From positions 3,782,001 through 3,846,000 of the forward strand of contig CM120645.1 of assembly GCA_051362555.1 (NCBI GenBank): a DNA stretch of 64,000 nucleotides. Direction: 5' to 3'. The stretch is from Lingula anatina. Its lineage: Eukaryota > Animalia > Brachiopoda. Under the pieces are notes generated by a model. That model made no database searches and had not been told where the DNA came from. It worked only from the letters and a program-made list of their open reading frames with translations. Within the stretch, counting starts at the first letter, position 1. Each line of letters starts with the position of its first letter. The position numbers and the translations under genes are program-made. Shown piece by piece: positions 11,801-56,830 of the stretch.

Positions 11801-13018
11801 TGCCTAATAATTGTATTATGTTTTTTTTCTGAAGACAGTTAATTACTTGATTATCTGGTAAAAAATAAATGTTATGTGGAGACATAAAGTGAAGCATAAT
11901 ACTTACCTTGTGTCCTCCATAGAAGGCAATTTCCTCTGCATTAGCTATTACTCTGGAGTGAATATAGCGTAGGTATCCCTTCTTGCTGGCCTCTTCAGCA
12001 ACCAATTTTCCAAACTTTGGTGATACTGCTCGTAATACCTTGCCTGTTATCACAATAACTACAGCAGCGAGAACAGATGGAATTCGAGAACTTGCACCTC
12101 TACTTGATGCCAGCTACAATGATAGTAATGTTTCCACAATATTGTTCAATGAAATATGACATTATGAGGAAAAATTTAATATATATACAGACAAACCAAC
12201 ACTATGAAAACATTATCTCCTTCATTGGTAGAGGTAATTAAAATAATTTACAATTCCAGTTGTGATACCTTGTACAGAGTGAAAGACATCAAAGCCACAT
12301 CTAACAATGGTTTGGTGAGGTGGGAATATAGATGAGCAAGAGAGGAAGTAAATTCTGCAATATCTTCTGTCAGACACTGGTCGGCATTGGTCAAGCGCCC
12401 ATCCAAGTTGCTGACTCTGTAGTAAGTTTGATTGAGGAAATACTTGCTGTATGCATGATTTACGAGTTGTGTGCGCAGTGCCAAAGCCAGTTTACTCTCA
12501 AGAAAACGGATCAAACTGTTCACAAAGGTCGCTGGCACAGCAATGAGTAGCCATTTGGAAAGTTGGACAACAAATTTCATTACATCCTGTTTGACTATTG
12601 TTCTAACAATTCTGCCATCTAACTTAGCTACGTATATGGACAGAAATGTTCTTGATACAAGAGACGCCGTATGTAGGGCCAGTATGGCGAATTCTTTGGA
12701 CCAAATAGATGGGATGAGAATTTTCAACAGTTTTCTTAGTTGTAGGAAAAACTGTCTATCAACACCAGGTGCCCTTGCATTCTTTCGCTTTTCTGCTTCT
12801 TCACCTTCTCCGTCATCTCCATCTCCTTTTGATCCGTCTGCCCGTTTTCGACCTTTGATTTCAGGCAAGAAATACTTAGTCAGGTGAGGATAAAATCTTC
12901 CCACTCCGTATGCTGCTATTAAAGCAGCTGCAACACCGCCAATGACTTTCTTCCGACATCCAGGGTTTTTTGATGCAATTTTTATCAGTTTGTACACCGT
13001 TCTCTGTGCATTTTCCAT
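2888..13018 (-). CDS. ABCD2: Peroxisomal ABC half-transporter, subfamily D (ABCD1/ABCD2 co-ortholog), 11 coding exons, 747 aa
   Basis: Exons (minus): 13018-12269, 12113-11907, 11699-11519, 11075-10951, 10763-10610, 6071-5980, 5658-5513, 5302-5157, 4728-4644, 4339-4214, 3119-2888. All GT-AG with consistent phases, total 2244 nt. Motifs: [22 protein letters not shown]-like [19 protein letters not shown], Walker [10 protein letters not shown], signature LSGGEKQR, Walker [17 protein letters not shown]-loop [19 protein letters not shown]1 versus ABCD2 cannot be resolved from motifs; the symbol was chosen on synteny. Confidence 0.95.
6283..8047 (-). mobile_element. Non-autonomous Helentron/HINE-type element, family A, copy 1, with about 4 internal 146-bp tandem units (ABCD intron 5)
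   Basis: Near-identical to 36489-38816. Subterminal inverted repeat TTGTACCACCAGC/GCTGGTGGTACAA, terminal palindrome GTACCGCCAGC...GCTGGTGGTAC, GC-rich microsatellite-like (CGGAGCCGG)n; the other end has hairpin GAGGCG..CGCCTC and CTAG. No ORF. Confidence 0.75.
8194..10580 (-). mobile_element. Helentron/HINE (pearl-like) element, family B, copy 1, with an internal array of about 160-bp units (ABCD intron 5)
   Basis: Starts AACAAGGCAGCAAAGCTGTC-AAATGTACAGACA (hairpin plus subterminal repeat). Ends with a (GACGGC)n microsatellite and palindrome ATGTACAGACA-catc-TGTGTCTGTACAT. Array units begin near 9531, 9691, 9852, 10013, 10174. Homologous to 31897-34530. Confidence 0.72.
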
Positions 13019-13399
13019 TTCAGAAATGAGTACTAAGAAATTATATCACGTGAAAAAGAGGACGACGCGAACCTTGGCCACCATATTAGTGACCTTTACC
13101 TCTGGTGATTAAAAAATTTGGATTTTACCGAAATACTTGCATCTCGATATAATGCTCATAAGATATACCATATAAATCTCACTATATCCCAACAAAGAAT
13201 TCGATGTTTTCGAGAATATTAACAACCTAAAACTCCTATCATTTAACGTCAGTTTTTGTTATAAATTGTCTAAACCCGTGCATTTATATTAACCGGAAGT
13301 CAGCGCATCGTCTGCTATCTCTGCTAGCTGAGCTGTGTTTGGCAGCAGCCGAGTTGGTTATAGTTTCTTCGAAAGAAAACAACAACAGAAAAAATAACA
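13019..13399. promoter_or_regulatory. Probable bidirectional promoter shared by ABCD and REDIC1-like
   Basis: Divergent ATGs separated by 381 bp; local CpG enrichment; ETS/GABP motif ACCGGAAGT at 13292-13300; palindromic E-box TCACGTGA at 13046-13053. Confidence 0.6.
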
Positions 13400-26928: not shown

Positions 26929-29900
26929 TCACTCAGGAGAGTCTAAATCCGAGTCCCGTCCATCCCTGTTTAGGCCCCGTATGTGGACATACTGGACACT
27001 CTTTTCATAATAAGCAACAGGTGCTCCCCGTCCACACCATGGCCTGGCAAACAGCCCCTCCATCTCTTCCAGGCTCTTCCCCTTGGTCTCTGGCAGAAGG
27101 ATTAGCAGGAATATAAAACCTATGGTGCCTAGGCCTGCATACAGCCAGAATGTACCTAGAGAAAGAAGAAGATATTTCAAGAGGGTGCATTTAATTAATT
27201 TATGAGAATGCATTTAAGTAAGTGGGTGGAAAAATGGGCTACTGTTAAAGCATTCTGTATGTGATCATAAGAAGACAAGGAAAACCAGCTTGAAATTGAG
27301 GTATACTAAAGTTTATTGACAACTGTGGAGTCGGTCGCTGTCTCAAGTTTCCACAACACATGTAACAAAAGTAGATGATATTAATGTTGCACCAACTCAT
27401 TGCATACTTTGATGAAAATGATGGGTGATTGAGACATTATATAAAAATAGGGTAGGGGTGTGAAAGGTAGATATGATGTTTTGAAATAATGGCAGGATGG
27501 GGATAGATATGTGTATATTTCAAAACTGAAAGTTGTCTTTTTTCATTCTTTGGTTGAGAATTGGTATAATAAAACGGCGCACATTACTTCAGGGACTGTG
27601 TGGAATAGTGCCCTTTGAGGAGAAATATAAGACCATGACTATGTACTGTTTGTCTAATATAATTACAATATGACAAATTGAAAGTGGGTTGGAAAGTGGC
27701 ATGTTTCTACGTCAATGCAGGAAACATATCAGGACAAAATTCAATATTTTCCGAAGTTAGAGTAATTTTAGGTGTCACTTTATCATATTATAACAACATT
27801 ATTAGACAAAGAGATGTTTTGTCACAGACACTTCTCAAGTATGCAAAGAAATGTTGCTGAAATTACACACGAACAACATGAGCAAGTTAAATGTTGCCTT
27901 CATAACTTCTATTCCAGACAAGAAAAAAAATGCTGTAAGTAAAATAATAATATAATCACACATTTAATTTATATTTGAAAATCAAACAACTAATACATTA
28001 AAAAAGAGAAAGATCTGACTTTAAAATCATGTGCCTTATTTATATCAGTCTGTACAGTATCTGTCATACAATGATCAATGTAAATTATTCATCCTTCTGT
28101 AATCACCTGCCAATGAAAAAGATTGTTTTTATCAAAACTGCTTCATTTTGTTTGTTAGTGGGCAAGATATCTTTAAAAGTTCTTTACATTTAGATGAAAT
28201 ATTTACGAAAGACAATTATTGAGGCGTAAAAAGTTCTTCAACAGAATCTAGATATAATATTTCTGAAAAAATCTATGGCTTTTTTCCATGGCAGGAGATG
28301 GCCTTGCTCTAGGAGTCCCTCTAGTTATCATGATGATCATTATTATCAAGAAAGTTTTGTCACAGAAAAAACTATCAGCAAAGAATGCAGCTGAAAACAC
28401 AAATGATACTGCTCTTTCAGACCTTACCATATCTGGTCAAAGATTCAGTCAGTGTCAGAAACGTCATGGAGACCAGAAGATTGCAGGTCCAATTCCAGAA
28501 GGTGGCAGCAGCGTTGCCAGTGCTCCTGGCCCACAGTGGGTAGATCTCAGAGTTGATTGTCCATGGCATGGGCCCCATACCTGGATATAAGAGGACGGAA
28601 ATCTGGATAAGTAATGGTCATGATTCCTATATCATTGCACACAGGATAGCTCAAATACAATTTGTGGTGTTTTTTATAAAAGCATTTTTGTTATGTTTGA
28701 AAGAAAGATAAAAAAAACCTGGGAAAAGAAGCATATGAAAATTTTCAAGGTCACTCAGTAGCTATGTTGTCTATGCCCCTTACAGCTTGAGTGGGCAGTG
28801 TCACCATCTTCTTGTAGATATAGTTACAAATAAGCATCATGTTCAGCTATAAATCAGTTTCAAATGGTGACAAAATGAATGATTTTAAAACCTTCACTGT
28901 TTCTGCCAAGGCCCTCATCCGACATTACCAGTAAAATTATGTCTTGAAAACACAAATAAGCACAACAATGTTGATATGAAAGTAAAATACATGCAAAAAA
29001 AAAAAACTATAGTATTACGTAAAAGTAATGTGATCATGCTGATCAACTTCAAGAAGAAACTATCTCTTTAGAAAACAACAAATACCTACAGTTTGGTAGT
29101 TATAGCAAGAGAAATGTGGAAATACACAAAAAGAAACACAAAAAATCAATAACTTTTGTATTCATAATATTCTCACACTGATATTCAAAAGGAATATGTG
29201 TTTTTACTAAACAAAGCCACCCAATATATTTGAAGTAAAAATAAAGTATGGGATGGCACAAATAGGGTGAACAGAAAAAAGCACAAAAAAATCAATAACT
29301 TTTGTCAAAGTAAGACAATCATGCTGGATTTCAAGAGGCAGCTGTCTATTCACCAAACAAAGTCAGTCAGTAAATCGTGATTTATAAAAATATAGTTTGG
29401 CAGTTATAAGGTGAACAACGTATGTGTCAGACAGTGAGGGTGTGAACAGACACAGTGATCAGAATATATACAAATATATAAATATAAATATAAAATGTAG
29501 GTCATCATCAGGTCTCAGTGTCAATTTCTGATTTAAACAATCACTTCTGACAAAGTGACCTAGTGAGAAAATCATTCAATATTTTTATCTGGCAATGTAC
29601 AGTGACAAAATTTGCAGCAGGTTGAATTTCATGGTTCTAAGGCGCAATCATATTGCAGATAAGTCCCTTCTTCTTGATCCAATTTTGTCACCCTGATTTT
29701 CAGAAATTTCCTAACACTCAATCAAGTCATCTGCATGCCATTTCTGATATCAGCAGTGTGATCAGCACCAGACATGTACATGTATAATTGTGCCAAGATG
29801 ACAATGCACCAAATAGAGTGGGCCTATCTGCAGTGTGAATGTGACTCAAAACTACTTACCTGGGGCAAAGAAGACCAAATATGACACCAGTCCTACCATG

Positions 29901-32900
29901 GCCATCCATGAAAAAGAGGTTGGGCAGTAGTCATATGCCCAGGCCACAGAACCTGCATTGGAAAGAGTTATAGTCTTCATGCAAGATAAAGTACAAAAGA
30001 TTTTGCACTTTGGCACATAAGGTAGCAGTTAGCATTTGGTCTTGTAATTCCATAACAACAAAACTCGACAAATGAAATGTTTCATAATATCATAAAATCC
30101 AGGGTTAAAGGCTACCAAAGCTGATGTCTTATTCTATTGTTAAGTTCACATTTTTATTCTTAGACTCTGTCACTCTGGCCCCCCTACCCCATGCCTCTCC
30201 TTAATCAAAATCCTATATGTGAGACTACCACTGCACTATAGCATTGTGTACCTGGAAGGCTAGTGCTGTTACACCTGCCATACAGTGAAGTTAGTGGGTC
30301 ATCATAGCTTGTGGCCAGGCAGGAGCCATTCACAGCCGTGTTATTGGCATCGTTGTAGCAGAAACCGCAGCTCAAATCTACCATGCATTGGTCGCAAGTG
30401 CTGAAATATACAGTGAAACATGTTGGTGTGAAGGAGAAAACAGAGGGTACTCAGAAGTTGATCTGCAGACTCACTAAAAAGCAGCGCTAACTAATCCCCT
30501 GATGGCCTCTACGCCTACACAAGCGCCGTCACTGCAGGGGCCTTGCATTTTAACCTCAGAGCCAAGATTTAATCCATTTAAGGGCCAGTTCATGTGGAGG
30601 TGGGGAGACCATCAGGGGATTAAACGGCACTGCTTTTTAGTGGGGTCAGCCATATTTAGTCACCGAATCAGTTAGTCCACGGATTAGTTAGTTCTGAATG
30701 CCCTCATGGCCTCAAATATAACCAGTTTATCACACACTGCTGGTTTCAGATACTAAAATATACAAAGATTTATTTTGTTGTGCTACATGTACAGTGTAAT
30801 AATATTATTATAAGAAAAAGAAAAACTCATTTTAATGAAGTTCATCATGCATGCATTGGTTTCACACACTGAAATCTACTGAGATCTATTTTGGCGTGTT
30901 GTTCACATAACTGTAGCGGAAATCACACTTCAAGTTTCAAATTAGCACATTCTTGTTACAAGTAATGAAATTCACATAGATCCACATCCCTGTGTTATTA
31001 TCACTGCAGTGGGAGAAACTAAAATTCAAGTCAATCATTCACTGAAAGCATGAAATATATCTCAAGTCCTAAACCCGTTTACATAAGAGCACAATTAGAA
31101 CAGCGGACAAGCAGATCTGCAGATCAAATATGGCAATCCACTACATTAAAAAAAAGCTTGCTGCATAATTCAGGATTAGACACTGAATAGATTTCCTGCA
31201 GGGATTACGCAACAAGCATTCATTGACAAGTGGGTCGGCCATATTTGATCCATGGATCTGTTAGTCCCCTGTTCTGAATGCGCTCCAAGGGAACCTCCTG
31301 GGTCTGGGGTATTCTCCAATACCTGTGCTGATTACATGGGTTCACAGCTTCCACCACTGTAATGGGAGGGGAGTGGAGGGCATTCAGCTGGAACCCAATG
31401 GCAAGCCAAGCCAGACTGACTATAGCACCTAGAAGAAAAAATTAACAAAGTTATAATTTTAGATGCCATGAGTAAGTGAGACAGTTATTGACGGAGAGAG
31501 TTGTCTGGAAACAAGAAAAAAAATCAGTCTTGGGTATAATAATGAAAAGGATCCAGGGGCCTACAACCTAAAGTCCATATTTTGCTTTAGATCTTGATCA
31601 CTAACCATAAAAATTATGTCTAGAAATACAATCATCATAACTAAATTTTGGTCCCTTTTAGTGTTGTAATCCACCAAACAAGTTTTGTATTTCTTTTATT
31701 AAACAATTTTTTTGAAAAAAATTATAAGGTAACATGCATCACTCTTAGACTATACTTATTTCAATAATTGACTCTTTTGATGGAGCTGGGTACCTTATTT
31801 TTCAAAGGAAGTAGCTCTAAATGCACTCTGTAGATGTATATAATAAACAATCACACCTAAATGCATTTAAAAGTGAAGAAATGGCCCCTTTTTTAGAACA
31901 AGGCAGCAAAGCTGTCAAATGTACAGACAAAAAGCAGGAAATAACTATGCACAAAATAGGCTACTGTCAATTCTGATGCAAAAGTACATTATGTTAAACT
32001 GTAAATTCAACATCAATTTTTAATTATGCTCAACAGGAAATACCAATGAAAGTAAAATGTGTAACAAGCATAAGGCTTCAGGCCCATGAGAGTTCAAGTT
32101 CACACTTTGAAAATGTATAACTTCCAGAAAAAGAAGCCAATTAGACTGCTTTTCCAACTCAGGCTGCATGCCGATTTTCGAACTTGACCTCCGTTTTAGT
32201 AAGATCGATTACTCCTGAGAGTTTCACGACAACAGGCCTATCGGTTTTCCTTGAAATGTGTTTACAGTGTTGCATATATGTTGAAAAGTGAAAGAAAAAA
32301 GCATAACTTCTACAATAATGGCCCGATCATCCTGTTTTTTGAACTTGACCTGGGTTTTATGAATATTCATCAGCTCTTTAAATATAAAGCCCAAAAGTAA
32401 AACTGCCTTCCACTTATCGTGTTTACAATAAAAGTGCAAGGTACATCTGTACATATTTACTGTACTGTTTGAGAACAGTAAGTGACATGGTTTTTCTTAA
32501 ATGGTCATCATGGGAGCAGTGCCCAAAATAGGTTTTTTTCAAATTTTGACGCAATATTACATAATGTTTAACAGCATAATGACCATCAATTTTTAAGAAT
32601 AAAATATTAGTATCATGGATATTCAGAAAATGTGACTAGCAAAGGTCTTCAGGCCCATGGAACTTCAAAGCCACAACTTGAAAATGCCAAAATGTAAACA
32701 AGACAGCACTGTTCTGAAATGGGTTTATTTCCATTTGTAACAATTTTTAACATAAAACAAAATGAACAGTTTACTGCCATTTTTATATGATCAACTAAGA
32801 AAATTGATGAGATTGGAAAAATATCAATATAACAGTGTTAAATGTCCAATTTCCTCCTTTCTGAGATTCTGAACATAGTGGATGATTGAATCTGACAAAC

Positions 32901-35900: not shown

Positions 35901-38900
35901 AGTGGTGTTTGGAACTTTCTGTTTAAATTTGTAGAGTTGCATCATTAGTCCAAAGCTTCCTCGGTCCGATACTTTTTATAAAAGCATTTTTTCAGATGTT
36001 CATTGGTCTTTAGTCTCCAGTGCAATTTTGGAAAGAGATAAAGGATTGACTGCATGGTGTTGTTGTTTTAACAAATGTTCCTTTGAATCTATAGCTAGGA
36101 GGTACCCAGACCTAGTTGTAGTGGGCCCTAGTTCATAGCTAGGACCTACCCAGACCTAGTTGTAGTGGGCCCTAGTTCATAGCTAGGACCTACCCAGACC
36201 TAGTTGTAGTGGGCCCTAGTTCATAGCTAGGATGTACCCAGACCTAGTTGTAGTGGGCCCTAGTTCAATGATCCTTGAAACCAATGAAACTTCTCACCAA
36301 TAAATGGTGGGAAAGCCTGTTAAGTGTCTATACTTTACAAACTTATAAACAACAACAAACAATATATGATTATTATCTAGGATACAGACAAAAACATCCT
36401 TACTATGTATTACATGGGGATCAAGTTCTCTAAACACAGTCATAGCTCTACGTACTGGTATGTTATTCATTCATTCGCAAACAACTGGAACTAGAGGATC
36501 AGAGAGGTGATACCGCCTCCAAATATTGTACCACCAGCTGGAGCAAACGCATTCGTATAGACCCCCACATACACAAAATAAGGGACACAGCCACCAGTTT
36601 TGTGCTTGACAAGCTGTAAAAATGCAATCAACAAGAATTTTTTAACTATTGCAAAAAATATATATGGTACAATCAAATTTAAGTTCTTCGTAAGGTAGGT
36701 CAAGGGTCAATTTCAAGGTCACAGTAAATTGCCAGTATATGACTTCCTATTCAAGTTCAAGAGTAACTATGGACCTATCTCTGTCAAGTTTGAAGTTAAA
36801 AGAGAAAGAAATTAGCAGAGTTCAGTTCATGATAAAAAGTAGGTCAAAGGTCAATTTCAAGGTCACACTTAGATTGCCAGTATAGGACTTCCTATTCAAC
36901 TTCAATAGTAACTATGGACCTATCTCAGCCAGTTTTGGAGATAAAAGGAAAGCAAAATTTGCAAAATTCAGTTCATGGTGTAAAGTGGGTCAAAGGTCAA
37001 TTTTAAGGTCACATTTAGATTGCCAGTATATGACTTCCTTTTCAAGTTCAATAGTAACTATGGACCTATCTCTGCCAGTTTTGGAGATAAAAGGGCAGAA
37101 AAGTTTGCAAAGTTCAGTTCATGGTGAAAAGTAGGTCAAAGGTCAATTTTAAGGTCACATTTAGATTGCCAGTATATGACTTCCTATTCAACTTCAATAG
37201 TAACAATGGACCTATCTCTGCCAGTTTTGGAGATAAAAGGGAAGAAAAATTTGCAAAGTTCAGTTCATGGTAAAAAGTAGGTCAAAGGTCAATTTTAAGG
37301 TCACATTTAGATTGCCAGTATATGACTTCCTATTCAAGTTCAATAGTAACTATGGACCTATCTCTGCCAGTTTTGGAGATAAAAGGGAAGCAAATTTTGC
37401 AAAGTTCAGTTTATGGTGAAAAGTAGGTCAAAGGTCAATTTTAAGGTCACATTTAGATTGCCAGTATAAGACTTCCTATTCAAGTTCAATAGTAACTACG
37501 GACCTATCTCAGCCAGTTTTGGAGATAAAAGGAAAGCAAAATTTGCAAAATTCAGTTCATGGTGAAAAGAAGGTCAAAGGTAAATTTTAATGTCACATAT
37601 AGATTGCCAGTATATGACTTCCTATTCAAGTTCAATAGTAACTTCGGACCTATCTCTGCCAGTTTTGGAGATAAAAGGAAAGCAAAATTTGCAAAATTCA
37701 GTTCATGGTGTAAAGTAGGTCAAAGGTCAATTTTAAGGTCACATTTAGATTGCCAGTATATGACTTCCTATTCAACTTCAATAGTAACTATGGACCTATC
37801 TCTGCCAGTTTTGGAGATATAAGGGACTAGATGTTATAATTTTGGAGTTACCATAATGTGCCTTAAATTTCGTACAGAAAAAATTAATTAAAATAAAGAA
37901 AATGTCATTTTGGTCAAAATTCTTGAAATAGGAGGTGCTCTGAAGTTTCAGAAGTTCAAATTTGATGAAATAATGTCATTTTTGAACACAAGTTGTCTGC
38001 TTTGCCAAGCCTTATGTTTTATTTTTCCAGAGTTCAAAATTTATTATCCATTACCGTACTGCACATTTTGCTTTTACCACCAATATGTACTTTTTGATAC
38101 AGCGTAACTCGAAAACCGTATGGAATACAAAAAAACCGAGACCACCTTCAGTGTTGGGCTTTACATGCTCTACAAAATGCAAAAAAGAATGGGTCTCTAG
38201 CATTAACGGTTCCCGAATTAGAGACAGTTTTCAGTTTCGGTATCTTATGGCCGCTACTCCCGTGAAAATGCACCGATTGACCCCAAATTCATGGAGATGA
38301 AAGATGACCTGAAGGGTAACACTTTCCAATAATATTATTGGTTAAGTCTGTGTGGTGTCTGAATAACAGGGCAAAAAAAAATTTTTCGTAAAAAATTTCA
38401 TTTTTTTGAAAATTTTGGCCCATTTGACCTTGAAGTAGAGGTCAAAGGTCAAATCCAAGGGTATATTTGAAATCTACACATATGACTTTTGGAAAGCCGT
38501 CTATAGAAATTTTTCCCATAACTCCTTCCGTAGGGTAGATAATTAGCATTTAATTTTGCCATTTTTAGACAAGGGTGCATTGCAATGAGTGCCACACCCA
38601 GACCCCAATACTGACAAAGCCCAAATTTTACGTGGAACGAGTTGAGATTATAGGTGACCTAAATCCATGAGATGGGTACGGGGGCCCTTACCGTCTAGGA
38701 GGAGAAGCGGTAACGGTAGCCGTCCGGCGGAGCCGGCGGAGCCAACGGAGCCGGCGGAACGATCCGGACGGGACCGAAACCATGTGTACCGCCAGCGCTA
38801 ACGCTGGTGGTACAATTAAAGGCTGAAATATGCAGAGCAGCTAGAAAAGACACCAATGTATGGAGTCAATATTCCTGAGGCATGCACACAAATCTCCATC

Positions 38901-41900
38901 TTAATTTGCACGTATCAGTGGGTTTCTAATTAAGATACGGAAATACATGTCCGCGTGTCCTTCCTGGTGCCCCGTGTTTCAGAGGCCACTGGAAACTAAT
39001 GTCACCACTAATATCAGCATGATTGCTGATAATATAGAGTTGACAGTTTCTCTGAAAGTCAGGGTGCCATTAAGGCTTATTATACTCTTATGAAAACCTC
39101 TTTATTGAGAAAATGCTCATCATTAAAGGTACTTGATGACCATTCTGAGAGATGGATGTCCACACCATATGTGATCGACCATTAAATTGTGGGCAATTCT
39201 GGTCTGGTAATTTCTTAGTTAATTAGAAGAAAATCAATTAATTTTGTTTGCCAGAATAATGTTTTGGCAGTGTCACTTATCTGACAAGATTATTTAAAAG
39301 CATATAGGGTTATGAAAAAAAAGCCACTAGTTCTAAATAATTATAGTGTATACTTTGATTAATGAAAAAGTTGCAATTATTATAGAAAAGTATAGTTTGG
39401 ACTCTGAACTACTCAGTGATTTTCAGCTTACTAAAAACGAAAACCTTCAACCAATATTAGCTCTTCAAACAGCTTTTTCACTTGAATTAATCAATTAATT
39501 ATAAATTAATCAATCTCGTCCTGTTACGTCTGAAAAGTACATGATCATACATAACTACATACAAAGAATGGCATTTTGCATAAATCAATACTTAGTAAAG
39601 AAATCAAGTCTTTACAAGAAGTGGTGTTCCCAATAAATGTTCACTCTAACCATGAAACAAAATAGCCTCTAAGTATGTTTTACAAAATAAAACCACATCA
39701 GACAAAACCTAGATTTAATATTAATTATTTTTCAGAAGACTGACTAAAATACAGCAAGGTCAATCCATCTGAGATCTTATATTATATTACATGTAGTACA
39801 ACTCCCATCATCAGAAATTTCTTCCACAGATCAATAATTTTCTGTTTGTACAAACATCCTGGGACTTGTACAACATCAGAAACTAATGAAGGAGAACATG
39901 TCTGAGCTATGTGTTAGGTTGGCCTATTCAGAGCAGACAGAGCATGGCTCAATCAGTAGTCAAATGGATGGCAGACGTCATGGAAGAGCACAGGAGAGGG
40001 ATCGTTGGTTTGCAAGAACTGGCTTTTCAGTTGAAAAAAAAAGGCCCGCTCTGAACCAAAATTTGGTCTAGGTTCTATTACATTTTTCATGTTGGGTCAA
40101 TAGAGGGGTAAAAAAAGATCACCTTTGCAACTTAAAAAAAAAAGACCTGTTATCCTACCATAAATTATCACCGAAATTTAAAATGAAACATTGCCCTGTT
40201 ATTGTATAAAGATGTACCAAAGCTGATTCACAAGTATTGAAAAGTGAACTGAGATCCTATCAGAAAGTAACATAATTATTTGAGCGAAAGATTTAAAATG
40301 AAAAATATTTTAAAAAATCATATTGACCAATATTGAGGTATTTCACATCTACACCACAGCTGTTTCAGATGTATACTGCTGACTGAATATCCATACTCTT
40401 GTGTCAATTTAAATTTTAGGTGGTTTTGAACTTGTCAGGCCTTAAAATCAATCATGCTATATTGTAAAGAATTATAACTCCCTTAAAAGGATAATGGCAG
40501 AGAAACCATGTCACTGGTTAAATGGACAAAAATATAAAAAGGAGTAAAATGGGCTCTAAATTTTCATTAAAGAAATACAACATCAGATTTGTAAATAGAA
40601 TATAGATGCACAAGTAAACAAATTTGACTTCATGCATGCATGTGTGCGCACACACGCACACATACTGACCCCCCCACACACACACACACATTTACCTATT
40701 AAGCTTCCGAGTGTCAATGGTCTTCTTCCAATTTTTTCAACCAAATACAGACCAACGAAAGTGAACACAAAATTTACAGCAGCAGTAACAGCAGACAGCC
40801 ATATTGCTGTAGATTTGTCCCGGATCCCTGACATTTTGATGATGGTGGCACTATAATACCTGTAAGAAGAAATACATTACTCCACTATTATACAAGATTT
40901 ATATCAATCATGTAACACTAAGACTAACTCTGAGACTGGCAAATGCTTAACACATTCCAATATGGTCAAGGGACATGTAAACCATTCTACCATAATTATT
41001 TTAAAACGAATCAGTTCTAAAACAACACCCTCTATACTCTCAAAACTGATTTTCTTTCAGTGTGCATTTTATAGCCATATTATTACACAAAATCTCATTT
41101 TCACATCCAAACAACATGAGCCCGAAATGGGTTTAGGACCATATTTCCCTGATTGTTACAGACTGGGTTAAGGCGAGTGTCAAGAAAGAATTATCACATG
41201 ATGGTTCGACAAAAAATACCAATTACCCCAGGAAAATCTGGTAAATTATCAATTTTTTTACAGAGAAAATCTTTTACTGGGCACCTTGACTAAACTGTCA
41301 CTCCTAGCGTTGATTGCTACCAATTTGCTGCATAGTCTGAAAGCGAAATCGCATCCCACTGATAAGTGTGGACTTCAGTTTAATGTTAACACAACTCAAT
41401 AAACTTGGCTCACATGACAGTGTTGATCCCCACTAATTGCTGCACAATCTGAAGGCTACATCCGATGATAAGAGCTCTTCTCACAGCTGGGGTCTGTAGC
41501 ATGATCAGCAGCACCGGTCTGCGACCTGGGGGAATTGAATGAAATGAAAATATAATTATTAAAAATATCAGAAATTATAGTGTGTATGAATTTTAATAAT
41601 ATAAGTAATACTTGTATGTTGTTGAGAGCAAGAGAATTTACTCAGGTACGTATAACATAGCTAAGGCACACGTGTGCATGTGTGCACGTATGTACATTCG
41701 CGTGCATGAATCCAAAAACATATTTTGAAGCAAGTTAAATTCATGAAATTTGCAAGGCTTAGCAATTCCCACACCCCTTTCTCTCAGCTCCATTTCATCT
41801 TCTTCACAGCTTTTTTTAATTCCATCAAATTCATCATCTACATCTAAGACACCACGTATACTCTGCAACACTCGCCGTGCTTGGTCATCGCGCTGTTTCG

Positions 41901-44376
41901 TGATAAGCCACCTGGAAATAAAACATTTTCTGTAATCACTCTAAATATTCATACAGAACAACTGAACAATGTACTTTGCCCAAAATATTGATCCATTGGT
42001 GACATCTTAAAAAGATTATTAGGATGTCCTGAAAAGTATGTTGGTTTATGCCAGAAATAACTTAGTAGCTGAAATATCTAAGTTTTAAAAATCCAAAAGC
42101 TAGATAGACTTCCCTGTAAAACATTCTCCTTCTGTTTGTGTAACAGTGTAATAGTGCAAGTGCAATGAAATGCAACAAGTTTTCAAGTTTTCCCCCCCAA
42201 TAATAAGTATGCGTTAAAATCTTTAAAGTTTATTAAAAATCTAGAGGCAATGAAAGATAACTTAGACAACAAGTTACCTGGGGCTTTCTGGCATAAAAAG
42301 AAACCCAAGAAATTGTATAGCTGATGGAATTCCTGCCAATCCAAGCATGTACCTGCAAACATTGAAATAAAAAAAAATTTGCTTTAGATCAATTGTAATT
42401 AAATAAATGAATAAATAGATTCTCTGTCAAGTTGTTTTAGAAAATGAGAGTAAGGACATCATTCTGACACTCAAATAACACTATTGTAAGTCTGTGATAT
42501 GATTTCAATATCAACTACAGAACCTGAAAAAATATGTGGACTGTCAAAAGCTTATATGGATACCAATGTAAAAAGTTTGCTTGGTGCAATATTAACAAAT
42601 CGTTTTTAATTTTTAACCAATTCCTTGCACACAAAGACCCACAATACTTTTTAACACCCTCCCCCCCCCCCCCCCCCCCCCCGCAATTTTTTTCAAATCC
42701 ACTGAGGTTATCATAGTGAGAGTATAATTATAACATTATATATACGATACAAGTATAATTATAGCTATGCACCTTCAAGTTTGAAATTGAACAATGTGCA
42801 AAACTTTTTGGTAAACAGCTGTTCAAGAACTATACCAAGTCTAGTTGTTAAGGAATAAATGATTGTAAATGGTCATTTACTTTAGAAACACCCTTTACTC
42901 CCAAGGAGCACAGAATTTCTTCCAGGGTATTTAGTATTCAGGCAGTCCAACAAGCGTTCATTGTCATTACACCAATGAACCAGCCATTACTCCTTCCCAG
43001 ACAATTTCTGCTGGCAGATTAATGGATTGGCAGTTCTGATTAATCCAGGCAATCATTTCCTTTCGGAACGATATTTCCGCGACCAAATAATGAAACGGCA
43101 AATTTTTACAGGAGTTATTAGGATTATCATTGCCTGGTGTTTTGGAAGAAGTGCTGTTGCCAGCAGCAAAGTTACTTCTGCAAGAAGTGACAAATAATTA
43201 AACATAATGGATATGATTGCAAGATGTAGTATTTACAGGTGACATTTAAAACCATGTGACAATATTGAAAACTTCCATTACTGGATCAGACCTACTTCTC
43301 TTAAAGAACCTTGAGGTCTTTTCACGTAGCGTGTTTTTGATCCTAACAGAACAGCTGCAAAGGTGTGGTTTTAAAAATTCTGCCCACCATGGATAGTCGC
43401 CCTCACCCTCTTTATTACATAATATTTCTATGATAAAACTGGTCAATTCTGGTACCAATGAGCTATTTCAACCTTGGCTGCCAAAATATGGGTATGCTAA
43501 AATTTTACCATTATCCTAGGACCCAATAAATTTGGTATACCTAATAGAAAGCATCATCTGGGTCATGTTCTCAAAGGGGTATGTCTATAACAGATTTAGA
43601 ATTAATCTGCTGTTTACTACAAAATATAATTACATCACGTATAAATGCTCCCTAGATGAAAAAAAAAAAACACAGCAAATTGATGTTACGTTAATGGAAT
43701 GAAATGTTAAAACAACTGATTGCAAATATGACTGCAGGGAAATTAGACACAGCACTACACATTTCCAGGATATCATGGAGTTTACAGAGAAATCAGTCGA
43801 TAGCACTGTTCAGACAAAGTTTATCTTGAAACGGTGATGGGCCTACAACATGTCATGTCATGGTCAGTGTTAATCTTAATTAGAACCAGAAATTTTACCA
43901 CCTGATTGAAGTATGACATGCTAAACAGCCCTACGACGTTAACCAATTCATATTTAGATGGTTTTTCTGGGCAATGACTAAATTGCTAGAGATCTTGTCT
44001 ATCTTTTATTTATAGTTATGGGCATGGCCTCTAAGACATGGTCTCTAGGGATATAGGAAATAGCTGTTGAGAAGGACTATATCATAAAAAGGGAAGGTTA
44101 AAAAAAAGCATCAGTGAGATAAAAAATATTAATAAACATAGTGATAGGTTGCTGTTTGACAGAGCTTAATCTCATTTATTCACGTCATGGTGAAATAGAG
44201 AAACTGATAACAATGCACGTAATGAAACGTGACTCATGTAAAATTAACAAATTGTTCCATTTCTGTCACCTTGATCATTATTTCTGCATCAAACTCGTTT
44301 ACTAGCAATTAGTGCTTTGGGGTCATTACTCTGACACAAAAGACAAACCAGAACAAAAGGGAGGGTCTCTTCTGAA

Positions 44377-47400: not shown

Positions 47401-50400
47401 TTTTATGAAAAATTCATGGCATTTGTATAGGCAAACCTATGTACCCACCCAATAAATAAAAACAATTGATCCGTCTGTATAAGGGTTCCATTATGTAAAA
47501 TTATCATTATAAAGAGTGTAGTGAAAATATAGACCGAATCCTTACTGCTGGTAGCACTTTCAACTCCCACTTAATACTGTTCAAGTATGTACAACACTAC
47601 AATAACTCTATAATATTATAAAAGTCATCATAAAATATATAGGAAAAAAAGAACCCAGACTGTCACTACTGGTAGCTACCACTTGCCATAGTGACGGTTC
47701 AAGTATATACACAGATTGCAATAAACTCTTCAAGAGATTATACTTCAATTAACAATTCAAGTATATATATATATATAAATAGCTACTTCAGGTATAAACA
47801 CTACCACTCCTTACAATAACATTGTTCAGGTATACAGCACATGCACAGCACATTTCATTTCTTCCATAAACCATGTGAGTTTTTCATGATATAAAATGAA
47901 AAATTATATCAATTGCTTTTTTACTTATTTTAATGCATGAAGCAAGATTTTTGGGTAATCTGACACAAAACTTTCCTTTTTTTTTACAGCAGTTAAAATA
48001 ATGTTAAAGGGGTGCAAGGTAATTCCACAGAATTATAACATTATATTTTTAATATTATATATAATATTAAAAATACAAAATTCTTTCATTTTTATAAATA
48101 AATTTTACCAAATAATGCATCTATTTGCATGCCCACAACAGGTGGAACAACATACAAAACATTCGAATGAACACTAACAAGATAATCAACAACAGTTAAA
48201 CATGCATGAGAAAAACAATGGCTTGCTCCAATAATCAAATATAAAATTTAATAAATCTTCATATACAAATTAATAACATGTGATTATGAAAAATGTTGTG
48301 GTGCATTTTTTTGTTTGTTTGTTTTTGGTAAAAAAAAAGGGGGTTGTGAAGACTCTGAAAAATGGTTGTTAATAGAGCATCTTCTTCAAGTTTGACCCAA
48401 AATGTAAAATGTTTACTGCCAATACACTCTTGAAACAGCCTAAGATTAGTGGAGTAGATGTAACAATTCCTACCTCCATCCTTGCTCAACATAGCAGAAT
48501 AGTCCATCGCAGACAGCCGCTACCAGAATGCCTGCAGTGATCAAAAGCTGATACAAGACAACAAGACGGCCGCGCAGGGGACTGGGCGCACACTCAGCGA
48601 CGTACATGGGGATGCAGGCGGAGGCAAGACCTGCGACAAACGCACAACAAGTTACAACATCTATGGGTCATGACACATAACAGGATGGGTTGTAACCCTA
48701 GACTTTATAAGGCCAGCCTTTCATATACATCTACATATTATAATGCAGCATTTTTTAAGTGCCACATTGTGACAGAGAGAAAGAAAGCCAAATTTTCATT
48801 TATGACAAAGGGGAGCTAATCTTCATTTTTGCAATGTGGTGTGCTCCACTAAGTATGCACCAATGGAGATTTTAAAATGAAGAAGCTTGCTGATACACAT
48901 AGGGAGAAATGTAGCAAGAGGAAGAGAAAATTAAAATTACCATGAATAGTTACAAACTGCCATGAATTGGCATTGGAATATCTTCCGCTCAGATTACTAT
49001 ACTGAAATTTGCTGTATAAATTCAATTCACACAGTGCAAAGGCAAATGTTGGTTTCTGAACTGGTCACAGCTCATTTTTTGTTGAAAATCTTTTATATAT
49101 ATTTCTATCTGAAGAGTCTGCGACACATAAATTTGTTCACAGAGAAAGGCTGGCCAGACAAACAAAATTAAATTCTAAAAATAAAATGCTGAATGTCTGC
49201 ATGAAATATCTGAAAACAAACAAAGCCACAGCATTACCAGTATACTAAATGAATTTGTTTGAAAATAAATTATAATATCTCACTAATGTCAAACATCCCA
49301 ATTAATATACCAAATATCTTATCATTTCGAGACTTATTACATTCAGTTACTGACACAGGGACTTGATGACAACAAACTATTACCATAATAATTATACAGA
49401 ATTATCTGAGAAGATGCTTTAGAAGCAAAAGATTGCATTTGGGAATTGTTTGAATTTAGTGAGAAATCAATATAATCATGGTACTAAATGAGAGTGGTAC
49501 ATTGATATGCAAGCCTACATAATCATGCAATGAACTCAAACATGAAAATATTAACAATAACATTAATGCAAGCATTTAAAACTGCATCCAATAAGAAATT
49601 AAAGTGGAAATCAAGCCAAGACTGATATAATTTTTATTTGGCTGGTGAAATGATTTTATACATGCAGATATGCATTTCTACGTTGATTGTTGCCACTGGT
49701 TAAAAATTAAAGAGACCAGGATCCCTTTAAAGACTACACCCCTTTATCTCCCTGCATCGTTACCCTCCCTGAGGACAGATTCCCCCTAGTAACATCCAAA
49801 ACAAAACATTTTTCTTTTCAAAAATACGCCTTCTTGGCATCCAAAAGTGACAAAGAATCAAATCATCATCCATAAATCCACTCTGCTGATAAGACCTAAG
49901 GGCAATTTTTCAGTTTCCATCCATGAGGGGGAGTGACGGTGCAGGGGAGTAATGATGAGAAGGTTTAGTGATGTGCATAATATTGTAATTATACTAGGCT
50001 AAGAGGAATTAACTATGCAGGGTTGAAAAATGATGATGTCCTTTTAACAATGCAGAATAGAAGATCTGAGTATCAACTTTCTTGATCCAAGATGGCAGAC
50101 CCTACATGAAAGGAAGACCGCTTAATCCTTTAATGGTCTATCTGCCTCTCACACACCTCTCCACATGTCTGGTTGAATGGAGCCAAGATTTAATTACTAT
50201 GCCCCTGCAGGGACGACGCATGGGGAGGCGTGTGAGAGGTGGAGAGACTATTACATGGTAGTAGTAGTAGTCTTCCTTTCATGTAGGGTCTGCCATATTT
50301 GATCCTTGGACCAGTTGGTACTCGGATCTTCTATTCTGAATGGCCCCAATGAGCTGTGTACTTTCAAGGACTGCTGCAGGTCTGTTCCTGCATGTTCCTG

Positions 50401-53400
50401 GGCCTGTTTCATGAAGAACTTCGGTATATACTGTAGTTGATTTTATCTCAAAGACCAAAAATTCAATCTATTTTTAATTTAGGATATTTCTGCAGTAGTT
50501 CACCGAAACGGAGTAACTATTGGTTTAAAGGGGAGACTGTTTCTTTTTGTCATAAAACAGACTCAATATTTCATTTAACCGGACTATATTGGATCAAAAT
50601 AGACTTAGGTTTTGGGTTTAAAAGTTAGGACCAACTTTTGGTTTTAAATTCTCTAGTGAAAAAGGCCCAGGTCATCAGATGATGCAAGTCAGGCTGATTG
50701 GCATTCCAAAATGTTCTTGTCTAAACAGAAGTAGACCACAAACCTCCACCCATCGTGCTGATCTTTGCTGAAAAGCCCATCTACCACATTAGCAATAAAC
50801 TGTCCGAAAGCCACCATGGCCACGTTAGTAGACACAAGGCGCCCCCTAGTGTGAAAAGGAGCAGCCTCCGCGATATACATGGGAATGGTTGTTGATGTTA
50901 AACCTGAAAAATGTATAACGTAAAGTTTTAATCATAAATGCAAACATTTTTATCATGCTTTACATTTGTAGGCAGTTAGATCACTGTGATCAAAGTGAAC
51001 ATCAGTCACACCTAGTTTAAGATATTTTACAATTATTAATTTAGTTTACTTAAACATATTTTGATAAATGCATGTATTGATTTAAATTTGGTCTTTTTTT
51101 TTTTTCAATCCACTCAATAAAAGTCAGATCCTTTGGGATAATATCCATCAGTGTACCACAGGTTACAAATTACTCCAGCATCATAATTATTTGAACCATT
51201 ATGATCATAATAACCAAATATCATACAACAATGAATGTCATCCATCTGGCAATGGACCTTTGATATAATTCATACATTTTTAATGATAGATACTGGTACA
51301 GTTACTATCATTCTGCTATAGCAGAGGTCTATTTACAAGCCAGCAACTCAATAGCCTCAACTATGTAAGCAAATGGTACCCTTATAATGAGCTCTATCTT
51401 TGCTATCACTGGGCACAGTAGAAAACTTCATTCATTTAAAATATTGGTGGGCGGACAACAAAAAGATAATACTGGCTGCCTGTGGTTGGCAACTGTAGCC
51501 AAATGTTGGTAGGCAGGACAACAAAGGGATAAGATTGGCTGCCTGTGATTAGAAATTGTAACTAAATGTTGGTAGGCAGGACAACAAAGAGATAAGATTG
51601 GCTGCCTGTGATTAGAAATTGTAACTAAATGTTGGTAGGCAGGACAACAAAGAGATAAGATTGGCTGCCTGTGATTAGAAATTGTAACTAAACGTTGGTA
51701 GGCAGGACAACAAAGGGAAAAGATTGGCTGCCTATGATTAGAAATTGTAACCAATTGTTGGTAGGCAGGACAACAAAGGGATAAGACTGGCTGCGTGTGA
51801 TTAGAAATTTTGCTCAGATAATATCTATCAAATTAAACTGTCATACTTAACAAAAGCGTAAATACACAGTTTACAGAGAAAGAGAACAAATTTTAACTTA
51901 AAAGTTACAGTAAAAGTGATGAGGCAGTTTGTCCTTTTAAATAAAAATATCTAAAAGTTAAAATGTATGATTTTGAATTGTTTTTGAAAAGTCTCATCAG
52001 TTTGGTACATGATGGAGATCAAAAGCTCTTTTGTCACAAACTTTTGATAAGATGTTTCAGAGTCTTTACTACAGGCTTTACGAAAAGACCAGAGATATTT
52101 TAAGATAATGAAACTCCTACCATTGGTTTCTTTAACCAGTCAAACTTAAGATTTTTAATGGCACCATTATGGGCCTCAGCAGATGAAATGAGGTTGATGG
52201 AACAACAAGGATCCCCCTAAAGTACTGTAAACAGAAAACCTATGGACAGTGCCCATACTTCATTTGCCAACAACAAACTAAGCTTGATTGATGTTCCCAA
52301 GACTGGCTTAATCATACTGTTTCCCAAGTCATCAGGGCTATCCAATAACTGCCATTGAAGAGGCCTGTGTCTACACTAGGACTTCCATGTCAATACGGCA
52401 GCTAAATGTCAGCTCATATTTGCCTATAATCAATTATGTCACTTCCCAATATGAGTTTGGTATACCAGAGAAAATGGCCATCAACAAAGTTTATTATTTC
52501 CATGCATAGATAGAATACTGGTAAATGTATGTATAGAATGGCCTCAAGGGGTAGAGACGAACTATGACAGATTATAGAATATGTAGAACTTCAAAAGGAA
52601 AAAATATCGGTTTCTACATGTATGTACACAGAAATGCAATGGAGCATTATACCAGGCATGAGACCAGTCCTCACTGAAAAAGTAGGATTTACACGATTCA
52701 CTGGATTTAGACAATTCACAAGAATGACCCAAATGACCCCGAAAAAGTCAGAATTCTGACAAAAGTCCAACAATAGTTGGAAAAATCCCATCAGTGTTAT
52801 AGTACTCATATTTTAAAAAAAAAACAAAGAATTTTCAGTCTTAATTTATTTTTGACTCTCTCTCTCTCTCTCTCTCTCATCTTTCCTAGTTTGAAAACTA
52901 TATCAGCACGTATAGATTTGACAAAATTTGCAGCAATTAGTAAAACTCTACATCAAGGGACACAAGTTTCATCAAATTATATTACTAGTACAGATATTTT
53001 GTTGAACCACACATGTTGATAAAATTACTGGGTGCAAATCTCATTATAAATCAATGTTTTGATCAGCAGATACAAGACACACATCCTCATTAATGAGATA
53101 TTCTTTGTAAATGTCATGACCAATGATTCTGTCACATCAGCTAAATTTAAAGAAGAAACCGACAGCTGCCAGGTAAAAATCTAGCCCTTTAAAATATGGA
53201 CTGCAGACAAAAATTACCAAGTTCACTAGTTTGTGCAAGGTTTTCAAGTGCTAACTCAAAGGTCATCAACTGGAATATGGTGACAATATGAGGACAGTGT
53301 TTTGAATTTAAGTATTCTGCTCAGGTGAGATTCATCACAGGTAAATAAAAAAGGACAGGGTTCTCAGCCCTTTTGCAGAACAGGTCACCTAACATGGCAG

Positions 53401-56400: not shown

Positions 56401-56830
56401 CTTACATCTGGATAGACATACCTATTGCAATGCCGACCACAATGCGTCCTGCAAGCAGCATATACTTGTCAATGGCGAGCCCCATAATTATGGACCCCAC
56501 TGTAAAGATTAGGCTGGCCGTAACGATAACAGGCTTGCGACCGAAACTGTCATTCAACACACCGCCAACTAAGGCAAACACGGCGGCCGCTCCTATCGTT
56601 ACACTCACTATAAGTTCCTGCCACAGGGAGTCCAGGCGGAACTCTTCTCGCAAGAGGATCATTGCTCCTGAAACCACCCCTGTGTCATACCCAAAGAGGA
56701 ATCCACCGATTGCTGAGAACAGTGTCAAAACGTAAACAAACGCTGGAGTTCGTTGTTCTTGCCCGATGCGGTCCATTCTTAGCGCAGAGTCGTCGTCCGA
56801 GTCATGCCCAAGGGTATTTGGGCGTTCCAT
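26929..56830 (-). CDS. SLC2A13: H+/myo-inositol cotransporter HMIT/GLUT13 (MFS sugar porter), 11 exons with an alternative exon 2; 594 aa (2a) or 593 aa (2b)
   Basis: Exons (minus): 56830-56422, [50903-50744 or 48630-48474], 42352-42278, 41911-41775, 41525-41414, 40859-40696, 31428-31323, 30400-30252, 29952-29860, 28580-28428, 27155-26929. Motifs: [51 protein letters not shown], the HMIT-specific Cys-rich exofacial loop (CDQCM...CGFCY...NGSC...GRC...WAYDYCPT), [39 protein letters not shown]. Confidence 0.96.
30443..30705. mobile_element. Fold-back MITE (GAGnGCATTCAGAA-type termini, PIF/Harbinger-like)
   Basis: Termini GAGGGTACTCAGAA / TTCTGAATGCCCTC. Inner arms CACTAAAAAGCAG/CTGCTTTTTAGTG and TAATCCCCTGATGG/CCATCAGGGGATTA. 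Confidence 0.6.
31087..31285. mobile_element. Fold-back MITE, same terminal family
   Basis: Termini GAGCACAATTAGAACAG / CTGTTCTGAATGCGCTC; arms GATCAAATATGGC / GCCATATTTGATC; flanks TAA and CAA. Confidence 0.6.
31897..34530 (-). mobile_element. Helentron/HINE element, family B, copy 2, with an internal duplication of about 1.1 kb (SLC2A13 intron 6)
   Basis: Same termini as 8194-10580. The block at about 32455-33625 recurs, partly deleted, at about 33626-34530. Confidence 0.72.
36091..36268. repeat. Minisatellite, 4 x 44 bp (ATAGCTAGGACCTACCCAGACCTAGTTGTAGTGGGCCCTAGTTC)
   Basis: Unit starts at 36091, 36135, 36179, 36223; contiguous with no spacers. Confidence 0.92.
36489..38816 (-). mobile_element. 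Helentron/HINE-type element, family A, copy 2, with about 8 internal 146-bp tandem units (SLC2A13 intron 6)
   Basis: Same termini and core as 6283-8047. Unit marks (TCAAAGGTCA) at 36700, 36844, 36990, 37136, 37282, 37428, 37574, 37720. Confidence 0.75.
44376..44420. repeat. (TAAA)n microsatellite
   Basis: About 11 perfect units. Confidence 0.9.
45825..46080. mobile_element. Fold-back MITE (GGGnnCATTCCCA-type termini)
   Basis: Perfect arms AGATTGATCCAACTCTGCAGGGACTCT / AGAGTCCCTGCAGAGTTGGATCAATCT; outer ATTCCCA / TGGGAAT. Confidence 0.6.
48474..48630 (-). CDS. SLC2A13: SLC2A13 alternative exon 2b (157 nt; TM4-TM5), hexose-transporter-like; absent from the ORF track
   Basis: tttgtcgcag|GT...TGG AG|gtagga, phase 1 to phase 2, no stop codons. 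Encodes [53 protein letters not shown]. About 57% GC by hand count within an AT-rich intron. Confidence 0.9.
50046..50347. mobile_element. Fold-back MITE (about 300-nt hairpin) between SLC2A13 exons 2a and 2b
   Basis: Arms CAGAATAGAAGATC/GATCTTCTATTCTG, ATGGCAGACCCTACATGAAAGGAAGAC/GTCTTCCTTTCATGTAGGGTCTGCCAT (perfect 27 bp) and CCTCTCACACACCTC/GAGGCGTGTGAGAGG. Confidence 0.7.
50744..50903 (-). CDS. SLC2A13: SLC2A13 alternative exon 2a (160 nt; TM4-TM5), HMIT-like
   Basis: ttttcag|GT...TGG AG|gtttgt, phase 1 to phase 2. Encodes [54 protein letters not shown]. Confidence 0.92.
51441..51809. repeat. Minisatellite, about 6 x 63 bp, in SLC2A13 intron 1
   Basis: Unit AAATGTTGGTAGGCAGGACAACAAAGAGATAAGATTGGCTGCCTGTGATTAGAAATTGTAACT; gives the 21-aa repeating ORF at 51428-51754. 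Confidence 0.92.
53514..53682. mobile_element. 169-bp MITE, copy 2 (5-bp TSD TAGTG)
   Basis: Same internal sequence and TIRs as 17027-17195; TAGTG on both sides. Confidence 0.85.

What the first reader, a model, noticed from the sequence alone, without database searches (positions are those of the whole stretch)
48474..50903. Duplicated, mutually exclusive TM4-TM5 exons in SLC2A13: a candidate splicing switch between inositol-type and hexose-type selectivity
Seen in the sequence: two intact paralogous versions of exon 2 (160 and 157 nt) with identical splice phases (1 to 2) and canonical splice sites. Including both, or neither, shifts the frame, so only one can be used productively. They share the structural motifs (IPMY.AE.AP...RGRLV, DGLF, GWR) but differ strongly in TM5. 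Exon 2a reads [12 protein letters not shown], like HMIT/inositol transporters (human, from memory, TINTLFITGGQF). Exon 2b reads [12 protein letters not shown], like hexose porters (GLUT1 TLHQLGIVVGIL, yeast HXT-type YQLMITAGI). Established: the TM5 Gln (GLUT1 Q161, XylE Q168) contacts the sugar. Exon 2b has this Gln; exon 2a has Val there and carries the downstream GQ instead. Inference: one gene yields two transporters with different substrate pockets by exon swapping. I know of no such arrangement in vertebrate SLC2A13.
Basis: partly seen in the sequence, partly recalled or inferred. Interest (0 to 1): 0.92.

Follow-up and report, generated by a model that had tools for sequence, protein, structure and literature searches.

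The report
Swappable sugar-pocket exon in inositol transporter
A lamp-shell (Lingula) gene of the inositol-transporter family carries two intact, transcribed, alternative versions of the exon that builds one wall of the sugar pocket, so it likely makes two transporters with different sugar preferences, and gene models of a ribbon worm, sea spiders and insects show a similar exon pair.

Summary
Confirmed. The Lingula anatina HMIT-like gene (minus strand) has two alternative exon-2 copies, 160 and 157 nt, phase 1 to 2; both or neither gives an early stop. RefSeq already lists both products (XP_013395117/118). Both exons carry RNA reads that end at their edges (2a in 4 of 4 runs laid, 2b in 3 of 4; few reads, no junction letters). 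The swap flips two TM5 pocket sites: 2a Val164/Gln171, 2b Gln164/Ile171 (XylE Q168/Q175, GLUT1 Q161/I168). Similar pairs appear in records from a nemertean, two sea spiders and a thrips; a termite has a different pair. One ancient origin versus repeated convergence is unresolved. A substrate switch is likely but untested: in XylE, Q175I alone does not give glucose transport. Corrections: 2a is a derived lophotrochozoan type, not the canonical HMIT exon, and the gene is one of at least two Lingula co-orthologues. The scan noted this layout before in another genome (e1-7596782). Tandem-exon tuning of transporters is a known kind (SLC7A2); I found no paper on this case.

The parts
56422..56830 (-). 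Exon 1 coding part (ATG to mid-TM4; TM1 Asp49 and TM4 Arg129, shared by both isoforms); ends in phase 1
50744..50903 (-). Exon 2a, 160 nt, second half of TM4, TM5, start of TM6; RefSeq isoform X1; derived 'A-type' TM5 (Val164/Gln171)
   Evidence: RNA depth in 4 of 4 runs laid
50821..50823 (-). 2a codon Val164, aligned to XylE Q168 / GLUT1 Q161
50800..50802 (-). 2a codon Gln171, aligned to XylE Q175
48474..48630 (-). Exon 2b, 157 nt, same segment; RefSeq isoform X2; GLUT/STP-like TM5 (Gln164/Ile171)
   Evidence: RNA depth in 3 of 4 runs laid
48548..48550 (-). 2b codon Gln164, aligned to GLUT1 Q161
48527..48529 (-). 2b codon Ile171, aligned to GLUT1 I168
42278..42352 (-). Exon 3 (75 nt), common acceptor in phase 2
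41775..41911 (-). Exon 4
41414..41525 (-). Exon 5 (TM7 with the QQ..GIN sugar-binding motif)
40696..40859 (-). Exon 6
31323..31428 (-). Exon 7
30252..30400 (-). Exon 8 (Cys-rich loop 9-10 typical of HMITs)
29860..29952 (-). Exon 9
28428..28580 (-). Exon 10
26929..27155 (-). Exon 11 coding part to the stop codon (C-terminal tail motif shared with the arthropod orthologues)

Best explanation
One Lingula HMIT-family gene holds two intact, transcribed, frame-equivalent copies of the TM4-TM5 exon, and splicing likely picks one, giving two predicted proton-coupled transporters that differ at two sugar-pocket positions and so likely in substrate range: 2a would favour myo-inositol, 2b would admit hexoses or other monosaccharides. 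Shown: the exons, their phases, the early stops when both or neither is used, RefSeq models, RNA reads on both, and the residue swap. Inferred: exclusivity is enforced by splice-site competition, with nonsense-mediated decay removing double-inclusion and skipping products (the exons lie 2.1 kb apart, too far for steric exclusion). Inferred: Gln171 in 2a occupies the space next to a hexose C6 group, as XylE Q175 does, while Gln164/Ile171 in 2b rebuilds the GLUT/STP-like face. Proton coupling residues in exon 1 and the TM7-TM11 half are common to both. My odds: real alternative exon pair 0.95; different substrate profile 0.6; specifically inositol versus hexose 0.35-0.4.
For: Frame logic and CDS model. 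RefSeq X1/X2. RNA depth on 2b 5.1/0/1.8/4.4 and on 2a (better bin) 1.1/4.0/0.8/1.7 in runs X1/X4/X7/X9, with zero depth in all 16 intron bins from 48658 to 50033 and edge-bin depths that match reads ending at the exon borders. Old duplication under constraint; 2b scores 104 bits on a canonical-type profile against 63 on the 2a-type profile and has none of the 4 states fixed in all 11 rows of the 2a clade, so it is not a recent decayed copy of 2a. Residue mapping; model of X2 pLDDT 91.7 with TM5 at 153-181, nearest solved folds GLUT3 and STP6. XylE Q168 binds sugar and Q168A lowers transport (PMC4137407, passages); Q175 bonds the glucose C6-OH and is Ile in GLUTs, and Q175I/L297F transports glucose (PMC13095657, PMC8784342, passages). 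The two sites alternate: of 360 unique segments, 89 are Q/non-Q, 236 non-Q/Q, 15 Q/Q, 18 neither, 2 gapped (not phylogenetically independent, includes prokaryotic and unnamed proteins). Isoform pairs that differ only in this exon with the same polarity in Tubulanus and Pycnogonum; tandem copies in Nymphon and Frankliniella predictions. Molluscs keep the Q/I type as a separate paralogue clade (100/100).
Against: No transport assay exists for any of these proteins in what I read. XylE Q175I alone still does not transport glucose (PMC13095657, passages); Lingula has Met at the L297-equivalent site (although glucose-transporting STP6 does too). Tested members of the HMIT clade are inositol symporters (PMC2890515, passages), and both isoforms keep that backbone. 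2a is not the canonical HMIT exon, so its substrate is also inferred. RNA counts are a handful of reads per exon in 4 of the 9 runs listed, junction letters were not displayed, and sample-specific use is only hinted. None of the 7 clusters of this gene's mollusc orthologues that I opened showed a 2b-type isoform (for one, 15 of 61 members listed). The Frankliniella upstream copy looks degenerate (12.8 bits). Three of the arthropod cases are automatic gene predictions, not genomic loci that I read.
Confidence: 0.52

Rival explanations
1. Both isoforms carry myo-inositol (or the same polyol set); the exon swap tunes affinity, capacity or proton coupling, as SLC7A2 exons 7/8 do for arginine.
For: Known transporter exon pairs change kinetics rather than substrate class (SLC7A2: about 3-fold higher capacity, lower affinity; PMC12714141, passages). 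HMIT backbone and Cys-rich loop are shared (PMC2890515, passages). Single Q175I is not enough in XylE (PMC13095657, passages). 15 of 360 segments carry Gln at both sites. Venerid clams have an exon-2 pair with only 6 differences and the same pocket polarity.
Against: The swap reverses both pocket sites to the state found in GLUT1, GLUT3, GLUT4, STP6 and GlcP at the TM5 Gln, and the same reversal is seen in three other lineages.
Confidence: 0.33
2. Exon 2b is a low-level or decaying relic; only the 2a isoform matters.
For: Long end branch of 2b (0.95-1.07); no 2b-type isoform in 7 orthologue clusters opened; AU test does not reject 2a+2b as sisters (p 0.10); no reads on 2b in run X4.
Against: Open frame, intact splice sites, second-codon-position identity 37/51 against 18/51 at third positions; 2b depth exceeds 2a in 3 of 4 runs; RefSeq model.
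Confidence: 0.06
3. The 2b isoform moves a substrate that is neither inositol nor a common hexose (for example an amino sugar, pentose or dehydroascorbate), or acts in another membrane compartment.
For: TM5 Gln with a hydrophobic second site is the general sugar-porter state across glucose and fructose carriers, so it does not name a sugar; SLC2 substrates include urate and dehydroascorbate (PMC7462842, passages).
Against: No direct evidence; N- and C-terminal tails, where targeting signals usually lie, are identical in both isoforms.
Confidence: 0.09

Closest known systems
SLC2A13 / HMIT (GLUT13), H+/myo-inositol symporter
   Same: Family, fold, Cys-rich loop 9-10, 52-57% identity to vertebrate HMITs; 2a keeps the TM5 Gly-Gln.
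   Different: No SLC2A gene is in the catalogue of 236 human tandem-exon substitutions (PMC8373072 supplement, term search). This gene is a lophotrochozoan co-orthologue; 2a has Val where vertebrates have Thr, and 2b has the GLUT-like pair.
SLC7A2 (CAT-2A/2B) mutually exclusive exons; also SLC12A1 and SLC39A14 tandem exons
   Same: Tandemly duplicated, mutually exclusive exons inside a transporter gene (PMC8373072, passages and supplement); SLC7A2 exons change transport kinetics (PMC12714141, passages).
   Different: Different transporter families. There the substrate class stays; here the swap covers a sugar-binding helix and flips two contact sites.
XylE wild type versus Q175I/L297F
   Same: The same TM5 position helps decide whether glucose is transported (PMC13095657, PMC8784342, passages).
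   Different: Engineered, needs a second TM7 change, and keeps Q168; the natural exons exchange both TM5 sites and leave TM7 untouched.
RefSeq XP_013395117.1 / XP_013395118.1 (Lingula isoforms X1, X2); Tubulanus XP_074645505/507; Pycnogonum CAM1300376/375
   Same: These automatic records already hold both products.
   Different: They carry only the generic family name; no functional or evolutionary reading is attached.

Membership tests
Sugar porter family (MFS) | Family profile above the curated cut-off | tested here: met
   TIGR00879 389 (X1) and 394 (X2) bits against cut-off 237.8
Sugar porter family (MFS) | 12-helix MFS sugar-porter fold | tested here: met
   X2 model pLDDT 91.7, pTM 0.90; best Foldseek matches GLUT3 4zw9 and STP6 9g11, TM 0.83-0.88 by target. 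X1 was not modelled.
HMIT / SLC2A13 clade | Groups with animal HMITs; Cys-rich loop between TM9 and TM10 | tested here: met
   Top named hits are HMIT-like; tree without exon 2 places it among animal HMITs (100/100 against two outgroup rows); loop present
HMIT / SLC2A13 clade | One-to-one orthology with vertebrate SLC2A13 | tested here: not met
   A second Lingula gene (P0022) and three mollusc paralogue clades exist; backbone unresolved
HMIT / SLC2A13 clade | Canonical TM5 (polar residue at the Q161 site, Gly-Gln downstream) | tested here: not met
   2a has Val/Gln in a derived context, 2b has Gln/Ile
HMIT / SLC2A13 clade | Proton-coupled myo-inositol transport | not testable with these tools
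   TM1 Asp and TM4 Arg are present; activity needs an assay
Tandem-duplicated mutually exclusive exons | Adjacent homologous exons with the same phases | tested here: met
Tandem-duplicated mutually exclusive exons | Each exon found in spliced RNA | tested here: met
   Reads confined to each exon, flanking intron bins empty; few reads, junction letters not displayed
Tandem-duplicated mutually exclusive exons | No transcripts with both exons | tested here: inconclusive
   No 2a-2b joint among the 15 joints listed (6 more not shown; threshold 3 reads) at very low depth
Tandem-duplicated mutually exclusive exons | Single ancestral origin across species (between-species similarity above within-species) | tested here: inconclusive
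   13 of 15 Q-type rows form one group (96/82), all 15 not rejected (p 0.31), but the group dissolves without three pocket columns; Lingula 2b is 43-45% identical to other Q-type alternative exons and 47% to 2a
Docking-site/selector RNA pairing (Dscam type) | Conserved complementary intronic elements | tested here: inconclusive
   No convincing pair near the exons among the 25 longest of 71 inverted repeats; no related genome to test conservation
Hexose porters (GLUT1-4, STP, GlcP) | Hexose transport | not testable with these tools
   2b matches their TM5 sites; the rest of the protein is HMIT-clade

The most novel reading that the evidence does not exclude
Protostome HMIT genes carry an ancient (Cambrian or older) or repeatedly re-evolved cassette of alternative TM4-TM5 exons that switches one proton symporter between inositol and hexose transport; molluscs resolved the same states into separate genes. 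A splice choice would change a transporter's substrate class, and the natural swap would identify the determinants of inositol selectivity in SLC2A13.
Probability: 0.33. Interest if true: 0.85.

Novelty: new variant of a known kind. Interest (0 to 1): 0.64.

Why it matters
What makes HMIT select inositol over glucose was not addressed in the review passages I read, and no HMIT chain was among the 26 solved sequences matched. Two natural isoforms identical except for 53 residues around TM5 are a ready-made experiment on sugar-porter selectivity. If substrates differ, this is a splice switch of substrate class rather than of kinetics. It could let an intertidal animal choose between osmolyte and nutrient uptake from one gene (inference). 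The recurrence across three phyla makes it a test case for ancient retention versus convergent exon duplication.

Tried and rejected
No whole genome is held for this window, so other Lingula loci and dN/dS could not be examined. Run search: no RNA holder listed; 9 raw-read runs were offered by species label, 4 were laid, on 48400-50960 only, so exon1-exon2-exon3 junctions were not read and loose-end rows were crowded out by a repeat. A single-sequence fold failed (pLDDT 40) and was discarded. Third exon copy or duplicated first/last exons in the window: none found. Recent duplication of 2a giving 2b: disfavoured, though not rejected by the AU test. A single origin of all Q-type exons: not shown (Frankliniella copy 1 was left out of that tree as a very long branch; the Q/Met exon of Owenia P0064 was not counted in the Q group). 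The Tubulanus gene with the exon pair is not the orthologue of this gene: another Tubulanus gene is (99/93). Docking/selector pairing: no candidate. Atlas searches added only the family name and could not name the taxon of P0360. Paper searches with no hit for this case: SLC2A13 + mutually exclusive exons (0); mutually exclusive exons + sugar transporter + substrate specificity (0); a five-term search with Lingula (19 listings, none relevant by title); exon duplication + transporter (1). Subscription journals are mostly outside that library. Earlier-finding look-ups by sequence and by place were blank.
Full report
Observation. Exon 1 ends in phase 1 and exon 3 needs phase 2. An 11-exon model with either copy reproduces a full protein; with both it stops after 201 residues and with neither after 183, far upstream of the last junction. 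The peptides share 24 of 52 residues. No third copy was found with 12 family queries.

Identity. The 2b peptide is identical to part of Lingula anatina XP_013395118.1 (isoform X2), whose cluster partner XP_013395117.1 (X1) carries 2a. The window differs from these at one residue. So the two products are already in RefSeq as automatic models. Both pass the sugar-porter cut-off. A tree built without exon 2 puts the gene in a clade with nemertean, bryozoan and mollusc genes (99/93); a second Lingula gene (P0022) has the canonical HMIT exon. The gene is thus a co-orthologue of SLC2A13.

Expression. Four of nine listed RNA runs were laid on 48400-50960. Depth inside 2b was 5.1, 0, 1.8 and 4.4, and inside 2a up to 1.1, 4.0, 0.8 and 1.7 (X1, X4, X7, X9). 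The 16 intron bins from 48658 to 50033 were empty in all runs, and the edge bins equal what reads ending at the exon border give (for example 5 reads x 12 nt / 86 = 0.70 in X1). That is the pattern of spliced RNA. No 2a-2b joint was listed. The counts are a handful of reads, and junction letters were not shown, so tissue-specific choice is only hinted.

Age and constraint. Identity by codon position is 24, 37 and 18 of 51, and the flanks do not align. 2a is 73-78% identical to mollusc orthologue exons, whereas 2b is closer to canonical exons (57%) than to 2a (47%), scores 104 against 63 bits on canonical and 2a-type profiles, and has none of the four states fixed in all 11 rows of the 2a clade. 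The simplest reading is that the duplication predates the 2a type, which brachiopods, nemerteans, bryozoans and molluscs share. The AU test does not formally reject 2a+2b as sisters (p 0.10).

Pocket. Counting along the HMMER alignments, residue 164 matches GLUT1 Q161 and XylE Q168, and residue 171 matches GLUT1 I168 and XylE Q175. 2a has Val164/Gln171 and 2b has Gln164/Ile171. The X2 model (pLDDT 91.7) places TM5 at 153-181, wholly inside the exon; nearest folds are GLUT3 and STP6. In XylE, Q168 hydrogen-bonds the sugar and Q168A lowers transport (PMC4137407, passages). Q175 bonds the glucose C6-OH and is Ile in GLUTs; Q175I alone does not give glucose transport, Q175I/L297F does (PMC13095657 and PMC8784342, passages). 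Lingula has Met at the L297-equivalent site, as STP6 does. Among 360 unique segments from my searches the two sites mostly alternate (89 Q/non-Q, 236 non-Q/Q, 15 Q/Q, 18 neither, 2 gapped); these rows are related and partly prokaryotic, so the P value is not meaningful.

Other animals. Of 20 further clusters opened, three showed isoforms differing only in this exon: Tubulanus polymorphus and Pycnogonum litorale with the same Gln-site reversal, and Mercenaria/Ruditapes with a young pair of 6 differences and no reversal. Three gene predictions run two copies in tandem: Nymphon and Frankliniella (Gly-Gln type then Q type, the order seen in Lingula; the thrips first copy is degenerate) and Coptotermes (2a-like then canonical). 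An unnamed protein that groups with the thrips gene carries only the Q type. Molluscs keep the Q type as a separate gene clade (100/100), and none of 7 mollusc clusters of this gene's orthologues showed a Q-type isoform. I did not read any of these genomic loci.

One origin or many. In the exon tree 13 of 15 Q-type rows group together (96/82) while the four sea-spider copies group by lineage (94/86). Holding all 15 together is not rejected (p 0.31), but without three pocket columns the group needs 6 changes and is a single side in 0% of bootstrap trees. The Tubulanus gene with the pair is a paralogue of this gene, not its orthologue. Either an ancestral cassette was sorted among duplicates, or duplication followed by the same double change happened several times; the clam pair shows the exon duplicates readily. 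52 columns cannot decide.

Mechanism. Shown: alternative frame-equivalent exons, both transcribed, with reversed pocket residues. Inferred: splice-site competition backed by NMD keeps them exclusive (2.1 kb apart; no selector pairing found). Inferred: 2a favours inositol and 2b admits hexoses. Against: the backbone is HMIT-clade, whose tested members are inositol symporters (PMC2890515, passages), and known exon pairs such as SLC7A2 alter kinetics only (PMC12714141, passages).

Comparison and novelty. Tandem mutually exclusive exons are enriched in transporters and channels and have arisen convergently before (PMC8373072, passages); its supplement lists SLC7A2 and SLC39A14 but no SLC2A gene (term search). 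PMC7462842 and PMC13605989 (passages) describe HMIT as inositol-specific without naming determinants in the passages seen. Four searches found no paper on this case; other papers were seen only as search listings. Verdict: a real feature, a new variant of a known kind, with an untested but directly testable specificity hypothesis. Interest 0.64.

Noticed in passing
window 50050-50341, intron between 2a and 2b: Foldback, MITE-like element with nested inverted repeats; folds into one long hairpin, z = -14; hundreds of divergent RNA reads map to it in all 4 runs, so it is a multi-copy transcribed repeat. No evidence that it governs exon choice.
   Followed up: partly
window 19319-22495 (-): Intact 1058-aa ORF with endonuclease and reverse transcriptase domains, a LINE-type retrotransposon, lying between plus-strand ORFs 17729-18370 and 22687-24735 that have no Pfam match.
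   Followed up: partly
window 11781-13045 (-): Exons of an ABCD-type (peroxisomal ABC) transporter gene, PF06472, downstream of the HMIT gene on the same strand.
   Followed up: partly
window 51453-51809: 63-nt tandem repeat, about 6 copies, in the intron upstream of exon 2a.
   Followed up: no
window about 36700-37830: Array of long tandem units in the intron after exon 6, seen by eye.
   Followed up: no
P0036/P0167 (Branchiostoma), P0029/P0123 (Lineus), P0047/P0153 (Ptychodera), P0122/P0250 (Tubulanus): Other HMIT genes show homologous alternative last exons (TM12 and tail) or alternative first exons (TM1-4); Tubulanus X3 changes exon 1 and exon 2 together. The family seems prone to exon-level duplication.
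   Followed up: partly
window 48518 and 48619 (exon 2b): Two RNA variants: 48518 is synonymous; 48619 gives Ala to Thr, the residue 2a has at that site (codon reading mine).
   Followed up: partly
P0169, P0171, P0172, P0175, P0177, P0236, P0248, P0261, P0263 and others: Roughly 830-910 aa proteins, mostly unnamed, with two sugar-porter units fused in one chain, often with different TM5 types.
   Followed up: no
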